NCBI GenBank assembly: GCA_963842945.1
Contig: CAWJIM010000021.1
Coordinates: forward strand, 288,001-352,000
Source: an uncultured Gemmatimonadales bacterium
Lineage (GTDB): Bacteria; Gemmatimonadota; Gemmatimonadetes; Gemmatimonadales; GWC2-71-9
Reading direction: 5' to 3'
Length of the DNA stretch: 64,000 nucleotides
Below, piece after piece: positions 43,893-48,325 of the stretch (position 1 is its first letter; each line of letters opens with the position of its first letter). The notes under the pieces were generated by a model. That model was not told the origin of the DNA. It saw only the letters and a program-made list of their open reading frames with translations, and searched no databases. A program made the position numbers and the translations under genes.

Positions 43893-45002
43893 TCATGCCT
43901 GGTCGAATAACGCTCCAACCGGGGCCAGCATCTGATCGAAGGAGACAAAGGCATTCGCCTGCAGCTCGAAAACCCCGTCGAGCGCCTGCAGCTCGTCATC
44001 CGTGAGCGGCGTCCCATCGCTCCGGACGATCGTCGTGGTGGTGCCGTCGGTGGTAATCGTGGCGAAGGCATGCCCATTGACCAGGATATTGAACGTCCCG
44101 GTGGTATCGGTGAACTGACCGGTCATGGTGATGGTGCCGTTGGGGCCGGCCATGACCAGGTTCACGTTGATGGGACTGTTCTGCTGGCTCACGTCACTCA
44201 CGTTGACGCTGAGATCGATCGAGACATCGCGCTGGGGCAGATCCAGCGAGTAGGTCAGGGTCAGGCCGGCGGTAAAGGTGATGGTCGACCGCAGGTTGAT
44301 GTTCGCCTGGGTGGTTCCATCGGTTACCATGCCGATCACCGTGACCCGGCCACTCGAGGTTCCGCTGGTCGCGGTGACGGTGTAATCCACGTAGGTCGTC
44401 CCGCCCGACACCACCAGCACCCGCGCGGCCTGGGTGGTGCCGCCGCTGAGATCGATCAGATCGACGTGTCCGGTCTCGACCAGTGGCTCGACCGGGATGT
44501 AGCTCACCGGATCCACCGCATACACGATGAAGCGGACCCCGTTGTTCGGAGCGCCGGTCAGATCCGAGAGGACGTACGCCTGGGTGCTGGGATCATAGAC
44601 AAAGGTCTTACCCGCGACTTCAGCGGGGACCGCCGCGGCCGCGACCCGGCCCGACTGCAGCGAAGCTCCCTGCCGGCGCTGGAGCATGGCGCCCAGTCGC
44701 TGCGCGCTTCGAACCGCCGCCGCGCGCATGCCCTGCGCGTTCTTGCCGCGGACGTCGATCGCCGCCACCGACGAGGAGATGATCGGCGAGCCGCCCAGGG
44801 CGGCGTCGAACATCACGCTGAAGGTCGAGAAGCTCGCGAACGCGTCCGAGCCAAAGGTCGAGTTCATCGCCTGAAGATCAGTCGAGGTGCCGGTCGGGTT
44901 GAACGGCGCATCCGGAGTCGATCCGCCTTCGCAACCGGCCAGTACGACCGACACCAACGCCACCGTCACGACAGATCGCTTGGCGAATTGCAGCACGCGC
45001 AT
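43893..45002 (-). CDS. Hypothetical lipoprotein, beta-rich
   Basis: GGAGG SD; lipobox LAGC; Thr/Ser-rich beta strands. Confidence 0.78.
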   Translation of the reverse strand: MRVLQFAKRSVVTVALVSVVLAGCEGGSTPDAPFNPTGTSTDLQAMNSTFGSDAFASFSTFSVMFDAALGGSPIISSSVAAIDVRGKNAQGMRAAAVRSAQRLGAMLQRRQGASLQSGRVAAAAVPAEVAGKTFVYDPSTQAYVLSDLTGAPNNGVRFIVYAVDPVSYIPVEPLVETGHVDLIDLSGGTTQAARVLVVSGGTTYVDYTVTATSGTSSGRVTVIGMVTDGTTQANINLRSTITFTAGLTLTYSLDLPQRDVSIDLSVNVSDVSQQNSPINVNLVMAGPNGTITMTGQFTDTTGTFNILVNGHAFATITTDGTTTTIVRSDGTPLTDDELQALDGVFELQANAFVSFDQMLAPVGALFDQA

Positions 45003-45161
45003 GGGTTCCGCCTCCATCAGGAGTGAGCAGTTGAGGGCGGCCCGTGCGTTGAGACGCGGGTCGAAAGCCGCCAAATCACCGACAGAAATGCTCTTGGGGG
45101 TGTCCCCAGGCCCTGCACTCTTCGCGCAGCGGCCCGGGACTGGGGCGGGATCAGGCAACGG

Positions 45162-46766
45162 CTATGCCAGCGTTTGCATTTCCTCTCTGGGTTCCACGGG
45201 AAATCCTTCGGCCTGCCAGGCTGCCCAGCCTCCTACCAAGGCTCGGGCCCGGGGCCATCCTCCCGCTCGAAGCTCTCGCGCCACCCGGGCGCTTGTGGCT
45301 TCGTCCTTTCACGCACAGTAGAGCACTACCGTGGCGTGATGGTCGAGCCCCAGTTGACGGGCTCGTCGGACCGCATCGTCAGGCGGAAGACGTATGGCGC
45401 CGCGAGCGATGAGTTTGTCCGCCGAGAAGCTGCGGTCGGTGCGGACGTCGGCCAGGATCACCGGCGCGCCGGCCTCCTGCAGCTGCCGCAGCTCGTCCAG
45501 GGTGATGCGCTCGGGTACCTGGATCTTCAGATCCGGCTCGGTAGTCACCGGAGCGCTGGTAACCGCCGCCGGCTCGGCGACCTGCCCTTCGCTCTTGCGG
45601 AGGAAGATCGCGATGCCGGTGCCGTGCAGCAGCACGGACAGCAGGACCACCAGGCAGGTAATGACGAAGAGGCGCTCGCTTCCGGGCGCCCCGGCAAACA
45701 CCGGCAGCAGGACCAGCAGAAGGGAGCTCAAGCCCCGCGGTCCGGCCCAGGCAAGGATGCGGCGCGTTTTCCGCTCCACCCCGAGACGGCCCAGGACCGG
45801 CAGCAGGACCGCTGTCCGAGCCAGCAGCGCGACACCCGCGAACGCCAGTGTGGGTAGATCGACGGCGCCAAGGCCGCTCCAGATCAGGCCTGCGCCGAAG
45901 GCGACAAAGGTGAACAGCAGGAACATCTCCGCCGTCGCCTGACCGTAGTCGAGGAAGCAGTCACAGAGCTCCACGTCGAGCCGGGCGATCACCACACCGG
46001 CCGCGAAGGCCGCCAAAAATCCGCTACCGCCCACTGACTCCGCGGCAGCATAGGCGGTGAACGCCACGCCCAGCGCGTATAGCGATTCGTAGTCCCGCCG
46101 CACGCTCACCCGCTTTCGCACCTGTTCCAGCAGCGTGATGGCGACATAGCCGATCAGGGCACCGAGGAGAGGCCCCAGGAGAAAGAGCCCCACCGCGTGC
46201 CGGCCCAGCTCGGACTCGAGGTCGGTATCGGAGTGGAGCGCCAGCATGCCGAGCACCACGATGGGGAGCAACACCACATCGTTGATCCCACCCTCCAGGC
46301 GTAGCGCCTCGCGGGCCGCTGGGGGAAGGCTGGAGCGCCGGGTCAGACTCCTCAGCATCACCGGATCGGTGGAGGCCAGAGCCGCGCCCAGAATCAGCGA
46401 ACGAATCACTCCCAGATCGAGCAGCAGCCAGGCCGCTAGCGCGATGAGTACCGCGGGAATCAGCGTTGCCGGACCGAGGATCGTCAGCAGGAGCCGGCGG
46501 GGCCGGCGGATCTCGCTGAAGTCCAGCGCGATCGCGTCGGTGAACAGCACCAGCACCAGGCCGAGCGTCGCGATCCACTGGAGGGTGGGTGAGGCCAGCG
46601 TAAGCTCGACCAGATTCAAGCCCTGCGGGCCGACGATGACCCCGAGCAGGAGGAAGATCGCGACCTGGGAAACTCCAGTCCGCTCCACCAATCCGGACAG
46701 GAGCGAGGAGACCAGGATGACGATCCCGATCAGGGCGAGCGCGGGCGCTAAAGATTCGGCAGCCAT
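45162..46766 (-). CDS. CPA1 (NhaP-like) cation:proton antiporter fused to a rhodanese domain; in-frame TGA at 45309-45311 predicted as selenocysteine (534 aa)
   Basis: LASTDPV, EGGINDV, SGFLAAF, GPRGL.S; rhodanese I...EL...ADVR...GAI...VVLYCA-TGA-KDEATSARVA..L..GGW.AW...G.PVE ending in TAG at 45162. Confidence 0.85.
45268..45303 (-). promoter_or_regulatory. Candidate bacterial SECIS element
   Basis: UGA-AAGGA-CGAAGC-CACAA-GCGCC-CGGGU-GGCGC-GAGA-GCUUCG: two-tier stem, G-containing apical loop starting 22 nt after the UGA. Confidence 0.72.
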
Positions 46767-46846
46767 GCGCGAAGTATGCTGTCAGCAGGAAGTCATTGCG
46801 AGGGCAAGGTCATTGCGAGCCCGCGGAGAGCGGGCTAACCTCGCCC

Positions 46847-48325
46847 ATGACCTCCGAGCCCGAGTCCACTGCCCTCCTGCTCACCACCTGCGGCGTCCTG
46901 CTCGGCGTGAGCGTGGTGTTCAGCCGGGCATCCCAGCGGACCGGTGTGCCCATCGCGCTGCTCTTCATCCTCGTGGGAATGCTGGCCGGCTCCGAGGGGC
47001 TGGGCCACATCGCCTTCGACGACTATCGCTTCGCCTTCCGGGTGGGCACAGTTGCCCTCGCGCTGATCCTGTTCGATGGCGGACTCAACACGCCACTCAG
47101 CGCGGTCCGCAAGGCCGCCGCCCCAGCCGGCGTACTGGCAACCGCGGGTGTCGCGGGCACGGCGCTGTTGGTGGCGGTCGGGGCAAATGCCGTTGGACTG
47201 GGTTGGCCGGAGGCGTTGCTCCTCGGCGCCGTGGTCTCGTCCACCGATGCCGCAGCCGTCTTCTCGGTGCTCCGCGGCAGCGGACTTCAGCTCAAGCGGC
47301 GGGTCGGCGTCACCCTGGAAGTAGAGTCGGGCATAAACGACCCGGTGGCCTTCATCCTCACCACGGTGCTCACCGGTAATCTGCTCCAGCCGGGCTCGGC
47401 CGCGGGCCTCCGCATCCCGCTCGAAATCCTGTTTCAGCTGATAATCGGCACCGCGGTGGGAGCCGGTGCCGGTTATGGCGGTCGCCATCTCCTGTCGCGG
47501 CTCCGCCTGTCGGCCGGTGGCCTCTATCCGGTACTGACGCTGGCGCTGGGGCTCAGCGCCTTCGGCGCGGCAACCCTGCTGCACGGAAGCGGTTTCCTGG
47601 CGGTGTACCTGGCCGGACTGCTGCTGGGCAACGGTCCCCTGCCCTATCGCACCGGACTCCTTCGGGTGCACGACGCTCTCGCCTGGCTGAGTCAGGTCGG
47701 CATGTTCCTGATCCTGGGACTGCTGGTGTATCCCTCCCGCCTGCTCGACGTGGCAGCTATCGGCCTCGGCCTCGCGCTGCTGCTCGCGATAGTCATCCGT
47801 CCGCTGGTGGTCGCGCTGTGCCTGCTTCCCTTTCGCTATCCCGGGAGGGAGGTGCTCTATATCGGCTGGGTGGGACTTCGCGGAGCGGTTCCCATCGTGC
47901 TCGCCACCTTCCCGGTGCTGGCCGGTGCTCCTGGTGCCGGCCGCCTGTTCGATCTGGTGTTCTTCATGGTGGTGGTGACCGCGCTGGTTCCCGGCGCCAC
48001 GGTAGCCTGGGTCACTCGCCGGCTCGGCCTCCAGAGCAAAGAGCCGCCCGCGCCTCAGGCCGTCCTCGCCATCGAATCGCGCCAGCCGCTCCAGGGTGAG
48101 CTGATGTCCTTCTATATAGATGAAGCGCTGGTGGTAGCCGGAATGCCGGTGGGAGAGCTGCCGCTGCCTGAAGGATCGGCCGTGACGCTCATCGTGCGGA
48201 ACAACCGCCTGCTTCCCCCGGCTGCCGATACGCGGCTGGAGCCGGGAGACCACGTGCATCTGATCGCCCAGCCGGAGGACCGGGGGCTGATTCAGCTGAT
48301 GTTCGGCAGACCCGAGGAGGAGTGA
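46847..48325 (+). CDS. K+/H+ antiporter NhaP2/CvrA-like with C-terminal TrkA_C (RCK_C)
   Basis: ILFDGGL.T, VSSTDAAAVFS.LR, LE.ESG.NDP.A, GSGFLAVY, WVGLRGAVPI.LA. Confidence 0.92.
   Translation: MTSEPESTALLLTTCGVLLGVSVVFSRASQRTGVPIALLFILVGMLAGSEGLGHIAFDDYRFAFRVGTVALALILFDGGLNTPLSAVRKAAAPAGVLATAGVAGTALLVAVGANAVGLGWPEALLLGAVVSSTDAAAVFSVLRGSGLQLKRRVGVTLEVESGINDPVAFILTTVLTGNLLQPGSAAGLRIPLEILFQLIIGTAVGAGAGYGGRHLLSRLRLSAGGLYPVLTLALGLSAFGAATLLHGSGFLAVYLAGLLLGNGPLPYRTGLLRVHDALAWLSQVGMFLILGLLVYPSRLLDVAAIGLGLALLLAIVIRPLVVALCLLPFRYPGREVLYIGWVGLRGAVPIVLATFPVLAGAPGAGRLFDLVFFMVVVTALVPGATVAWVTRRLGLQSKEPPAPQAVLAIESRQPLQGELMSFYIDEALVVAGMPVGELPLPEGSAVTLIVRNNRLLPPAADTRLEPGDHVHLIAQPEDRGLIQLMFGRPEEE

What the first reader, a model, noticed from the sequence alone, without database searches (positions are those of the whole stretch)
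45162..46766. Probable selenoprotein: NhaP-type antiporter fused to a CxU rhodanese domain, with a SECIS hairpin
Seen: the ORF track stops at ...VVLYCA-TGA, in mid-domain at the rhodanese active-site loop. The same frame continues 48 codons (KDEATSARVARELRAGGWPRARALVGGWAAWQAEGFPVEPREEMQTLA-TAG), supplying the rhodanese C-terminal signature, and has no start of its own. Directly after the TGA is a two-tier hairpin (CGAAGC/GCUUCG, GCGCC/GGCGC, loop CGGGU at +22). Known: bacterial Sec insertion uses UGA plus an adjacent downstream SECIS; related rhodanese domains (e.g. DedA fusions) have YCxCPxExxxA here; Sec-containing rhodanese-like proteins exist. Inference: a cation/proton antiporter gated by a selenol/thiol redox or sulfur-transfer domain. 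I do not know this fusion as a described selenoprotein family. The stop is in frame, unlike the indel errors elsewhere.
Basis: partly seen in the sequence, partly recalled or inferred. Interest (0 to 1): 0.92.

Follow-up and report, generated by a model that had tools for sequence, protein, structure and literature searches.

The report
Selenocysteine antiporter with rhodanese tail
The apparent stop codon inside this membrane ion-exchanger gene almost certainly encodes the rare amino acid selenocysteine, so the real protein carries a selenium-bearing tail domain that public gene calls cut off.

Summary
On the minus strand, 46766..45162 is one frame of 534 codons. It is broken only by TGA at 45311-45309 and reads ...VVLYCA-U-KDEATS....

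Read through, it is a Na_H_Exchanger domain plus a complete Rhodanese domain. The same TGA sits at the same codon in 66 distinct relatives' sequences. Coding periodicity continues after it. Third-position variation collapses over the next ten codons, where a 5-bp hairpin pairs in every sequence and shows two compensatory changes.

The genome holds selA, selB, two tRNA-Sec genes and a Sec-containing selD. Cys-form fusions exist elsewhere.

The rhodanese module is the known 'LYCAU / CxU form 3' selenoprotein kind, NCBIfam NF041203, but scores below its cut-off. I found no paper describing the antiporter fusion, and public calls stop at about 485 aa. Function is inferred: a redox-, thiol- or soft-metal-sensing regulatory tail.

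The lower hairpin tier is not conserved outside the genus.

This scan has already reported the same fusion on other genomes.

The parts
45162..46766 (-). Whole coding sequence: 534 codons with Sec at codon 486, plus the TAG stop at 45162-45164
   Evidence: Pfam finds both domains only when the TGA is read through
45594..46712 (-). Na+/H+ exchanger (CPA1/NhaP-type) membrane domain, residues 19-391, about 13 helices
   Evidence: PF00999 at 3.1e-41. AF2 model has pLDDT 88.5 and pTM 0.86. Foldseek hits PaNhaP 4cz8 (TMt 0.73) and MjNhaP1 4czb (TMt 0.75).
46365..46370 (-). T133-D134 of the ASTDP motif. It aligns with ATDP of PaNhaP.
46278..46283 (-). N162-D163, the 'ND' pair. It aligns with ND of PaNhaP.
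45954..45971 (-). E266-L-C268-D-C270-F271 motif at the start of helix 265-300. It is specific to the rhodanese-fused paralogue.
   Evidence: Conserved in all A2 rows that cover it. In this genome it occurs only in the two fused genes. It is present in frame upstream of the Sec codon in 66 of 75 locus records. It is absent from the neighbouring paralogue in 10 of 10 loci where that helix was fetched.
45504..45593 (-). Low-confidence linker, residues 392-421
   Evidence: pLDDT blocks of 65 and 54; length varies among relatives
45207..45503 (-). Rhodanese-like domain, residues 422-520
   Evidence: PF00581 at 6.4e-11, 43 bits against a cut-off of 22.2. NF041203 rhodanese_LYCAU at 85.8-89.5 bits against a cut-off of 115.
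45315..45317 (-). TGT, Cys484, the invariant first residue of the C-x-U motif
   Evidence: Invariant column in A2 and A3
45309..45311 (-). TGA, read as selenocysteine 486
   Evidence: Invariant in 66 distinct sequences. Cys sits at this column in P0121, P0123, P0125, P0128, P0134, P0144 and P0179.
45278..45292 (-). Core SECIS hairpin: GCGCC / loop CGGGU / GGCGC, with the stem starting 17 nt after the UGA
   Evidence: 100% of cells paired and 2 of 5 pairs compensatory. Third-position entropy is 0.405 here against 1.28-1.32 in the flanks.
45268..45303 (-). Full two-tier hairpin including the lower helix CGAAGC/GCUUCG. The lower helix is only locally conserved.
46796..48325 (+). Divergently transcribed paralogue: NhaP with a C-terminal TrkA_C domain. 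It is context, not part of the gene.
   Evidence: It is adjacent and divergent in 26 of the 38 loci listed (my count from that table; one is from an unpublished genome).

Best explanation
This is one gene for a 534-residue selenoprotein.

Decoding. UGA-486 is decoded as selenocysteine by the bacterial Sec pathway (SelA, SelB, tRNA-Sec, SelD). The signal is a SECIS stem-loop whose conserved 5-bp upper stem begins 17 nt after the UGA.

The product. It is an NhaP/CPA1-type monovalent cation:proton antiporter with intact TD and ND ion-site motifs. A flexible linker of about 30 residues joins it to a C-terminal rhodanese-like domain. That domain carries a C484-x-U486 pair at the junction between the central strand and the following helix.

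Proposed mechanism (inferred). The tail is a sensor or regulator rather than a metabolic enzyme. It occupies the place that regulatory domains hold in relatives: TrkA_C in the divergent neighbour, KTN in KefC, and cytosolic domains in SLC9C1 and SOS1. I propose that reversible chemistry at the selenol/thiol pair switches antiporter activity. That chemistry could be a selenenylsulfide, persulfidation, or binding of a soft metal or electrophile. It may involve the family-specific C268-D-C270 pair at the start of the following membrane helix. This would couple pH and cation homeostasis to redox or reactive-sulfur stress.

Odds. That it is a read-through selenoprotein fusion: about 0.93. That the tail is regulatory: about 0.45.
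For: Shown:
- The frame, the TGA and the hairpin are as described.
- Both Pfam domains are complete only with read-through.
- The TGA is at the same codon in 36 of 36 motif-bearing loci of the genus and in 66 distinct sequences across the phylum sample.
- In a 401-genome phylum sample, 43 genomes match the domain at E<=1e-12 and 42 of them carry the in-frame TGA. The 43rd (G173) is a different rhodanese with YCKDTEC.
- The coding signal continues past the TGA. Third-position entropy against first-plus-second is 1.277 vs 0.68 downstream and 1.317 vs 0.822 upstream. It collapses to 0.405 over codons +2..+11.
- The upper helix is paired in 100% of cells, with two compensatory pair types.
- Sec machinery is present: selA, selB-like, two tRNA-SeC genes, and selD with TGA at GAGUACK.
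- selA was found in 24 of 24 sampled genus genomes and in 42 of the 43 carriers.
- Cys-for-Sec homologues exist, including NhaP fusions P0123, P0125, P0128, P0134, P0144 and P0179.
- The best NCBIfam match of the domain is the selenoprotein family rhodanese_LYCAU.
- The NhaP fold and ion motifs are present.

For the regulatory reading (inference):
- The domain's position matches that of TrkA_C in the neighbour and the cytosolic domains of the KefC, SLC9C1 and SOS1 hits.
- The loop U-K-D-E-A-T is acidic, unlike the anion-binding loops of the thiosulfate sulfurtransferases it aligns to.
- The ELCDCF motif is found only in the fused paralogue.
- The same CxU module with the same hairpin is fused to another membrane protein, DedA/VTT, in two genomes.
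Against: - There is no direct evidence of selenium incorporation or of expression. The RNA-library contigs over the SECIS may be DNA or may come from relatives.
- selA is split over three frames, and selB scores just under its cut-off and in pieces, in this assembly. If these breaks are real rather than indel errors, this strain could not make Sec.
- One carrier genome (G407, 93% complete) showed no selA.
- On the single sequence the hairpin is not better than shuffles.
- Rfam has no match in the region.
- The lower helix is not conserved.
- The domain scores below the curated cut-off of NF041203.
- One relative has Leu at the Sec position (P0001), and others have Ser (P0176 and P0215). The residue is therefore dispensable in some lineages.
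- Nothing tested here separates a regulatory role from a catalytic or metal-binding one. I could not read distances in the model, so contact between U486 and C268/C270 is untested.
- It is unresolved whether C484 or U486 is the structural equivalent of the rhodanese catalytic Cys. Ungapped profile alignments favour U486. Gapped alignments, the model's strand end, and single-Cys relatives favour C484.
Confidence: 0.55

Rival explanations
1. Same selenoprotein, but the tail is a working enzyme. Under this reading it is a sulfur- or selenium-transferase or reductase whose C-x-U site carries a persulfide or perselenide. It would process a chalcogen species (thiosulfate, selenite, polysulfide) at the membrane, and the 'antiporter' would supply or remove a substrate or counter-ion.
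For: The domain is a rhodanese by Pfam. Its nearest solved relatives include thiosulfate sulfurtransferases (1yt8, YnjE, GlpE). Weak NCBIfam matches go to the chromate-resistance rhodanese ChrE and the selenite/tellurite-operon rhodanese ExtH. Sec usually marks a catalytic redox residue, as stated in review PMC13188914 (abstract and passages seen). The module is also fused to DedA. From memory, a DedA-family protein has been linked to selenite uptake; I did not check this.
Against: The loop has no Arg or Lys cradle. It reads U-K-D-E-A-T, with two acidic residues. The membrane part keeps the canonical cation-site TD and ND motifs of Na+/H+ antiporters. No sulfur- or selenium-metabolism genes lie beside it; the neighbours are ATP synthase, MoxR, a lipoprotein and a second NhaP. 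Relatives with Leu or Ser at the Sec position persist.
Confidence: 0.2
2. Same selenoprotein, but the C-x-U pair binds metal. Together with the membrane C-D-C pair, it would form a soft-metal or metalloid binding or sensing site (Cu+, Hg2+, Cd2+, Zn2+, As(III)). The tail would act like a metal-binding domain that gates or feeds the transporter.
For: Two closely spaced Cys/Sec pairs are both invariant in the fused family. Acidic residues follow the Sec. [quoted passage not shown] The paralogue on contig C19 has a P-type ATPase inserted beside it. The family also has secreted members with signal peptides.
Against: No metal-resistance genes lie at the window's own locus. The ion-site motifs are those of Na+/K+ antiporters. 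The P-type ATPase's subtype was not determined, and it sits in an insertion. No known metal-binding fold or motif was matched.
Confidence: 0.15
3. The TGA is a true stop. The cell would make a 485-residue antiporter with a truncated rhodanese stub. The conserved downstream stretch would be a remnant, a separate small ORF, or an RNA element with another role such as a terminator or attenuator.
For: Every public gene call stops there: about 119 of the 120 best listed proteins are about 483-490 aa or shorter. A 40-aa GTG ORF exists inside the tail. Orphan copies of the tail alone exist on C19.
Against: The same-frame coding periodicity continues for 39 or more codons after the TGA in 67 distinct sequences. 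The tail supplies the missing half of the domain. Cys-form homologues read straight through. No terminator-like site was found. The Sec machinery is present.
Confidence: 0.04
4. The TGA is a sequencing or assembly error for TGC, TGT or TGG in an error-prone assembly.
For: This assembly has frame breaks elsewhere: selA lies in three frames, and the P-type ATPase on C19 is split.
Against: The TGA is present in 66 distinct sequences from independent assemblies. Contigs of four public runs show no alternative letter at 45309-45311.
Confidence: 0.01

Closest known systems
Rhodanese-related (seleno)protein 'rhodanese_LYCAU', NCBIfam NF041203. [quoted passage not shown] The review's source reference is Zhang & Gladyshev 2005, Bioinformatics 21:2580, which I did not read.
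   Same: It has the same L-Y-C-A-U motif and the same domain. This model is the best NCBIfam match for the tail, covering positions 20-126 of 126.
   Different: The score is 85.8-89.5 bits, below the curated cut-off of 115. The model describes a protein of about 126 residues, whereas here the domain is the C-terminal tail of a 13-helix antiporter. Neither review contains 'antiporter', 'exchanger', 'NhaP', 'sodium', 'DedA' or 'Gemmatimonad'.
NhaP/CPA1 Na+/H+ antiporters with solved structures: PaNhaP (4cz8) and MjNhaP1 (4czb)
   Same: The fold matches (TMt 0.73-0.75). The sequence match is E 5.5e-14, with aligned TD and ND motifs.
   Different: These have no C-terminal domain. At the position of ELCDCF, PaNhaP reads IEKEVHF. 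They contain no selenocysteine.
KefC, the glutathione-gated K+/H+ exchanger (8by2, 8bxg)
   Same: It is a CPA-fold transporter with a C-terminal cytosolic domain that senses thiol chemistry, and it is a Foldseek hit. The logic of 'thiol/electrophile state gates a cation/proton exchanger' is what I propose here.
   Different: KefC is CPA2 and has a KTN/RCK domain that binds glutathione and its adducts non-covalently (recalled). Here the protein is CPA1 and has a rhodanese domain with a covalent-chemistry Cys/Sec pair. The resemblance is functional analogy only.
DedA(VTT)-rhodanese fusions with YCxCPxE
   Same: They carry the same rhodanese subfamily at the C-terminus of a membrane protein. Cys forms are P0143 and P0172. 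Sec forms with the same hairpin core occur in two genomes of this phylum (L100 and L102).
   Different: The membrane partner differs. All four full sequences seen carry their own Cys pair, C-R-x-x-L-E-P-x-x-C. Whether that pair is restricted to fused forms was not tested.
Other predicted Sec-bearing transport proteins listed in the review: SO_0444 Cu/Zn efflux transporter (UxC), cation-transporting E1-E2 ATPase (UxxC), YeeE/YedE, and SaoP/SaoB/SaoX
   Same: They set a precedent for selenocysteine in membrane transport proteins.
   Different: They have different folds and motifs, and none is a CPA-family antiporter.

Membership tests
Bacterial selenoprotein gene (UGA-Sec) | In-frame UGA conserved among orthologues, with the coding frame continuing downstream | tested here: met
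   TGA invariant in 66 distinct sequences. Downstream third-position entropy is 1.277 against 0.68 for first plus second positions.
Bacterial selenoprotein gene (UGA-Sec) | SECIS stem-loop shortly downstream of the UGA. The criterion recalled from bSECISearch is an apical loop about 16-37 nt after the UGA with G in the loop. | tested here: met
   The loop CGGGU starts 22 nt after the UGA. The upper helix is 100% paired with 2 of 5 compensatory pairs. Synonymous variation is suppressed. bSECISearch itself was not run.
Bacterial selenoprotein gene (UGA-Sec) | selA, selB, selC and selD present in the genome | tested here: met
   selA scores 286.9 bits but lies in three frames. selB-like scores 235.2 bits (cut-off 242.25) plus further pieces. 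tRNA-SeC occurs twice. selD scores 366 bits with 1 TGA.
Bacterial selenoprotein gene (UGA-Sec) | Homologues with Cys at the Sec position | tested here: met
   P0121, P0123, P0125, P0128, P0134, P0144, P0179 and others have CxC.
Bacterial selenoprotein gene (UGA-Sec) | Selenium actually incorporated into the protein | not testable with these tools
   Needs 75Se labelling or mass spectrometry.
NCBIfam NF041203 rhodanese_LYCAU | HMM score at or above the curated cut-off (115 bits) | tested here: not met
   85.8 bits for the whole protein and 89.5 bits for the domain alone.
NCBIfam NF041203 rhodanese_LYCAU | L-Y-C-A-U motif | tested here: met
   ...VVLYCAU...
NCBIfam NF041203 rhodanese_LYCAU | Small stand-alone protein (model length 126) | tested here: not met
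   The domain spans residues 418-527 of a 534-residue antiporter fusion.
CPA1 / NhaP antiporter (Pfam PF00999) | Pfam score above the gathering cut-off | tested here: met
   141.9 bits against 26.2
CPA1 / NhaP antiporter (Pfam PF00999) | Ion-site motifs: TD in the unwound helix and ND in the next helix. The role of these residues is recalled from the PaNhaP and MjNhaP1 structure papers. | tested here: met
   ASTDP and IND align with ATDP and FND of 4cz8 and are conserved in A2.
CPA1 / NhaP antiporter (Pfam PF00999) | NhaP fold | tested here: met
   AF2 model with pLDDT 88.5. Foldseek 4cz8 at E 1.9e-11 and 4czb at TMt 0.75.
CPA1 / NhaP antiporter (Pfam PF00999) | Cation/proton exchange activity | not testable with these tools
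   Needs transport assays.
Rhodanese sulfurtransferase (Pfam PF00581) | Domain score above the cut-off | tested here: met
   43 bits against 22.2, covering profile positions 1-102 of 102, only with read-through.
Rhodanese sulfurtransferase (Pfam PF00581) | Catalytic Cys at the start of a six-residue active-site loop | tested here: inconclusive
   U486 aligns ungapped with the catalytic Cys of 6mxv (both domains) and 1yt8 domain 2. C484 aligns with it, with a 2-residue gap, in 3tp9 and 6pfz. The model puts C484 right after the strand and starts the helix at residue 487.
Rhodanese sulfurtransferase (Pfam PF00581) | Basic, anion-binding loop (CRxGxR type, recalled) | tested here: not met
   The loop is U-K-D-E-A-T-S, and Cys forms read C-P-N-E/D-x-T-S.

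The most novel reading that the evidence does not exclude
The CxU (or CxC) rhodanese module is a portable chalcogen switch for membrane transporters. Fused to NhaP or to DedA, it would exchange a selenenylsulfide or persulfide, or share a soft-metal ion, with a Cys pair that only the fused transporters carry. That pair is E-L-C-D-C-F at the cytoplasmic start of a membrane helix in NhaP, and C-R-x-x-L-E-P-x-x-C in DedA. Ion transport would then be set directly by cytoplasmic redox, reactive-sulfur or selenium status. This would be a selenium-dependent mode of transporter regulation with no described precedent.

A second unexcluded oddity concerns the nucleotide-invariant SECIS-bearing 3' end of the gene. 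It may serve as an insertion site for genomic islands that bring their own copy of the tail. Two orphan tails on contig C19 bound 6.9-kb and 4.8-kb inserts.
Probability: 0.25. Interest if true: 0.8.

Novelty: new variant of a known kind. Interest (0 to 1): 0.6.

Why it matters
Selenoproteins are nearly all soluble redox enzymes. A selenocysteine on the cytoplasmic tail of a common Na+/H+-type antiporter would tie selenium to ion and pH homeostasis.

The gene is not rare. Of 36 sampled genomes of this genus, 35 carry a TGA-bearing match, and so do other genera of this soil phylum. The protein database holds hundreds of calls cut at about 485 residues and named only 'cation:proton antiporter'. 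Selenoproteome counts for soil bacteria therefore miss it.

The curated model that should catch the domain (NF041203) falls short of its cut-off on the fused form. A fusion-aware model would fix the annotation.

The natural series of Sec, Cys, Ser and Leu at one position, together with the partner C-D-C motif, gives a ready-made set of variants for testing what the tail does.

Tried and rejected
- Single-sequence folding as evidence. The z-scores were +1.39, -0.54 and -0.64, so it is uninformative in GC-rich DNA. I relied on covariation instead.
- Rfam scan of 44800-47000 at E<=1 found no match. Rfam may simply lack this element.
- Searching the membrane part against the protein database to test whether ELCDCF occurs without a rhodanese tail. 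The 120 best rows were all close, truncated Sec forms, so the question stayed open. It was answered only locally.
- Sequencing runs. No run holds more than 0.26 of the words, all are contigs, and coverage is patchy. They show no letter other than TGA, but they prove neither expression nor habitat.
- Looking for an integrase between the orphan tails on C19. Pfam found none in 22 frames, and PF00589 matches elsewhere only. Serine recombinases were not searched.
- The only TGA-free match in the phylum sample (G173) is a different rhodanese, not a Cys form of this family.
- Promoter and terminator scans of 44850-47000 found nothing.
- I could not read coordinates of the AF2 model, so no distance between U486 and C268/C270 could be measured.
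- Literature. Three-term and two-term searches found no paper on an antiporter-rhodanese selenoprotein. 'selenoprotein, antiporter, rhodanese' gave 7 papers, none relevant by title or abstract. 'rhodanese, NhaP' gave 0. 'Gemmatimonad, selenocysteine, selenoprotein' gave 8, none on this by title or abstract. The library lacks most subscription journals, including the 2005 bSECISearch paper.
Full report
**1. What is there**

The finding lies on the minus strand. Table 11 gives an ORF from 46766 to 45309 (485 aa) that ends ...HHATVVLYCA followed by TGA. Reading TGA as U, the same frame runs 48 more codons (KDEATSARVARELRAGGWPRARALVGGWAAWQAEGFPVEPREEMQTLA) to TAG at 45164-45162. That gives 534 residues with U486.

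With read-through, Pfam finds Na_H_Exchanger (residues 19-391, 3.1e-41) and a complete Rhodanese domain (422-520, covering profile positions 1-102 of 102, 6.4e-11).

- lower helix CGAAGC/GCUUCG
- upper helix GCGCC/GGCGC
- loop CGGGU, starting 22 nt after the UGA

On this sequence alone the fold is no better than shuffled controls (z +1.39 and -0.54). The hairpin's existence here is therefore not evidence by itself.

**2. Comparative evidence that the UGA is read**

A six-frame search of 60 relatives found the gene in 36 of 36 genomes of the same genus. In 35 of them at least one listed match carries a TGA. G027's single listed match covers only residues 7-401 and shows no stop (one of the 36, G003, is unpublished, and its contig ended before the motif).

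In 36 of 36 loci where the motif could be read, the TGA sits at the same codon, within YC[AT]-TGA-x-[DE]-E-A-T-S.

A phylum-wide sample of 401 genomes gave 43 genomes with a match to the tail at E<=1e-12. It was found in family f1 (35 of 166), f2 (6 of 93) and f5 (1 of 2). Forty-two of the 43 carry the in-frame TGA (G106 is unpublished). The one exception, G173, is an unrelated small rhodanese with YCKDTEC.

I aligned 66 distinct 72-nt stretches around the codon, leaving out the unpublished loci L042 and L071:
- The TGA is invariant.
- The 5-bp upper helix is paired in 100% of 330 cells. GC>AU occurs in 8 sequences, CG>UA in 4, there is one wobble, and no pair is broken.
- These compensatory changes also change the protein (A>T and A>V, SARVA>STRVV). 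That makes them hard to explain without an RNA constraint.
- The lower helix is paired in only 81.8% of cells, and three of its six pairs depart only by mismatches. It is at most a local feature.

Per-codon entropies over 67 distinct 270-nt stretches show ordinary coding periodicity on both sides of the TGA. Third position against first plus second is 1.317 vs 0.822 upstream and 1.277 vs 0.68 for codons +14..+39. Third-position variation falls three-fold, to 0.405, over codons +2..+11, where the hairpin lies.

So the tail is translated in the same frame, and an RNA element overlaps its first ten codons.

**3. Machinery and error checks**

The genome (24 contigs, 86.9% complete, 6.0% contamination) holds:
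- selA, 286.9 bits, but spread over three frames
- a selB-like gene, positions 1-211 at 235.2 bits against a cut-off of 242.25, plus C-terminal pieces on the same strand
- selD, 366 bits with one in-frame TGA, which falls at ...LSHGAGUACKLGP...
- two tRNA-Sec genes, 70 and 63 bits, both called tRNA-SeC(tca) by ARAGORN

selD's own UGA is also followed by a two-tier hairpin.

selA is present in 321 of 401 sampled genomes of the phylum, in 24 of 24 of the genus, and in 42 of the 43 carriers. G407, 93% complete, showed none. In relatives selA is in one frame. The breaks here therefore look like assembly indels, but that is not proven.

Contigs of four public runs cover 45271-45327 and list no alternative letter at 45309-45311. 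Together with the roughly 60 independent assemblies, this excludes a sequencing error.

**4. Homologues and public annotation**

Of the 120 best database proteins matching the tail region, all but one cover only the part before the UGA. Most are 483-490 aa and are named 'cation:proton antiporter' or 'NhaP-type...', several from Gemmatimonadales MAGs. A second search with the membrane part found 4552 proteins at E<=1e-10, and its 120 best are again of this truncated kind.

The exception, P0001, is a partial protein with Leu at the Sec position (YCALMDEQTR).

A library-wide search with the 122-residue tail found many hits that end exactly at the residue before U. Full-length hits have Cys there. 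These include:
- NhaP fusions: P0123, P0125, P0128, P0134, P0144 and P0179, with F/YCxCPN[DE]xTS
- DedA fusions: P0143 and P0172
- small proteins, some with signal peptides

A few have Ser (P0176 and P0215). This Sec/Cys pairing is the classic signature of a selenoprotein family.

**5. What kind it is**

The best NCBIfam match of the tail is NF041203 'rhodanese_LYCAU, rhodanese-related (seleno)protein', at 85.8-89.5 bits against a cut-off of 115 and covering positions 20-126 of 126.

[quoted passage not shown] The 2022 review PMC9312934 lists 'COG0607 form 2, CxU' (passages seen).

Neither review contains 'antiporter', 'exchanger', 'NhaP', 'sodium', 'DedA' or 'Gemmatimonad'. Full-text searches found no paper joining rhodanese with NhaP, and none on an antiporter selenoprotein.

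So the module is known. The fusion is undescribed as far as these searches reach, and the library lacks most subscription journals.

**6. The membrane part**

An AlphaFold2 model built on a 43-row alignment (A2) has mean pLDDT 88.5 and pTM 0.86. It shows about 13 membrane helices, a low-confidence linker (residues about 391-420), and then the rhodanese fold.

Foldseek places the membrane part with PaNhaP (4cz8, TMt 0.73) and MjNhaP1 (4czb, 0.75). After these come transporters that carry cytosolic regulatory domains: KefC, SLC9C1 and SOS1.

The sequence alignment to 4cz8 puts ASTDP on ATDP and GGIND on SIFND. The cation-site residues of Na+/H+ antiporters are therefore intact and conserved in the family.

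One feature is special to the fused family, the motif [ED]-L-C-D-C-F (residues 266-271) at the very start of helix 265-300:
- It is conserved in every aligned row that covers it, including a Cys form (P0179) and the Leu form (P0001).
- In this genome it occurs only in the two fused genes.
- It is present in frame upstream of the Sec codon in 66 of 75 locus records. Six of those records are re-fetches of the same place. The nine without it are contig ends, frame breaks, DedA or short forms, and G173.
- It is absent from the corresponding helix of the neighbouring paralogue in 10 of 10 loci where that helix was fetched.
- PaNhaP has IEKEVHF there.

By the published 13-helix topology (recalled), this helix starts on the cytoplasmic side, the same side as the tail. 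I could not measure distances in the model.

**7. The Sec site**

The model ends the central strand at Y483, leaves C484-A485-U486 unstructured, and starts the next helix at K487.

The evidence on which residue matches the rhodanese catalytic Cys is split:
- Profile alignment to solved rhodaneses puts U486 on the catalytic Cys without gaps in 6mxv (both domains) and 1yt8 domain 2, giving the canonical C-x5-S spacing.
- It puts C484 on the catalytic Cys, with a two-residue gap, in 3tp9 and 6pfz.
- C484 is invariant, and it is the residue kept in relatives with only one Cys.

I leave the question open. Either way the two residues form a C-x-U pair in the active-site region. The loop that follows (K-D-E-A-T) is acidic rather than anion-binding.

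**8. Mechanism**

Shown: a UGA with a conserved, covarying hairpin; the decoding machinery; a full-length two-domain product; intact antiporter motifs.

Inferred: the tail regulates the transporter. Four arguments support this:
- The tail sits where regulatory domains sit, such as TrkA_C in the divergent neighbour at 46796-48325. That neighbour lies next to the gene in 26 of the 38 loci listed (my count).
- Its loop is unlike those of thiosulfate sulfurtransferases.
- The same module with the same hairpin core is also fused to DedA/VTT proteins in two genomes of the phylum (L100 and L102).
- Only the fused transporters carry an extra Cys pair.

The most economical model is a selenol/thiol switch that changes antiporter activity. 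The switch could be an intradomain selenenylsulfide, an exchange with C268/C270, persulfidation, or binding of an electrophile or soft metal. This is analogous in logic to glutathione-adduct gating of KefC.

The rivals are a genuine sulfur/selenium transferase and a metal-binding site. Nothing I could run excludes either.

**9. Side observations**

The genome has a second copy of the whole arrangement on contig C19: ATP-synthase a subunit, lipoprotein-like gene, fused antiporter, divergent NhaP. The fused antiporter there is 64% identical to the window's, and the lipoprotein-like gene is 36% identical.

On C19 the antiporter gene is separated from the lipoprotein gene by about 11.8 kb of lower-GC DNA. 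That DNA carries a split P-type ATPase, a Ser/Thr kinase and a response regulator. It is punctuated by two orphan copies of the tail. Each orphan begins at the TGA, is 91% identical to the resident tail, and keeps an intact frame.

The pattern resembles islands that insert into the 3' end of a gene and bring a replacement end. No tyrosine integrase is nearby.

**10. Earlier notes of this scan and verdict**

After I had reached the NF041203 assignment, a look-up showed that this scan has already reported the same antiporter-rhodanese Sec fusion in at least 11 other genomes, with the same closest-known family. Those notes agree with my result but are not independent evidence.

Verdict: this is a real, widespread, systematically mis-annotated selenoprotein. 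It is a new architectural variant of a known Sec-rhodanese kind, and its function is not yet known.

Noticed in passing
G000 contig C19: 698570-698676 and 705579-705696 (locus L104); paralogue at C19:710456-712036: Two orphan copies of the post-TGA tail lie downstream of the paralogous Sec-antiporter gene. They are 107 and 118 nt long, about 91% identical to the paralogue's own tail, and each begins at the TGA and keeps an open frame. They bound 6.9-kb and 4.8-kb stretches of lower GC that carry a split P-type ATPase, a Ser/Thr kinase and a response regulator. The pattern looks like islands inserted into the SECIS-bearing 3' end that bring a replacement end. No tyrosine integrase was found there.
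   Followed up: partly
G000 C2:138515-139839 (L001-L003) and C2:8832-10665 (L004): selA is split over three reading frames and selB is matched in pieces in this assembly. selA is in a single frame in relatives. The breaks are probably assembly indels, but a real loss in this strain is not excluded.
   Followed up: partly
G000 C15:14378-14471 and C1:150251-150344 (L015, L016): There are two tRNA-Sec genes. Each lies about 9.3 kb from an EF-like GTPase match (C15:23687, C1:159577). Together with the duplicated antiporter locus on C19 and 6% estimated contamination, this suggests either segmental duplication or two related populations in one bin.
   Followed up: no
L100 (G433:C29, about 1258-2187) and L102 (G102:C11, about 1316-2296): These are DedA/VTT-domain membrane proteins fused to the same rhodanese module with TGA at the CxU position (YCSUPNEATS, YCTUPNETTS) and the same hairpin core. 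All four full DedA-rhodanese sequences seen, Sec and Cys forms alike, share C-R-x-x-L-E-P-x-x-C in the membrane part.
   Followed up: partly
protein P0001 (296 aa, partial, one short contig): This is a close relative of the fusion (73% identical in the tail) with Leu instead of Sec (YCALMDEQTRARVA). It still keeps the ELCDCF motif.
   Followed up: no
L012 (G000 C19:381780-382700): SelD of this organism is itself a selenoprotein. It has TGA at ...GAGUACK..., followed by its own two-tier hairpin with loop GUCC about 36 nt downstream.
   Followed up: yes
window 46796-48325 (+): A second NhaP antiporter with a TrkA_C tail is transcribed divergently, with only about 30-80 bp between the two starts. 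This head-to-head pair recurs in 26 of the 38 loci listed. The two differently regulated antiporters may share a control region.
   Followed up: partly
window 43893-45158 (-): A gene with a lipoprotein-like signal sequence (MRVLQFAKRSVVTVALVSVVLAGCEGG...) and no Pfam match follows the antiporter gene after about 160 nt. A 36%-identical copy holds the same place at the C19 locus.
   Followed up: partly
window 45268-45323: Contigs from metatranscriptome libraries and soil metagenomes pile up on just this 55-nt stretch (summed word depth 20.9 and 10.4 in the two RNA libraries). The likely reason is that the SECIS core is nearly identical across many relatives, so this is not a measure of expression.
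   Followed up: no
proteins P0150, P0162, P0167, P0168, P0178: These small CxC rhodaneses of the same subfamily carry N-terminal signal-peptide-like sequences. The module therefore also exists outside the cytoplasm.
   Followed up: no
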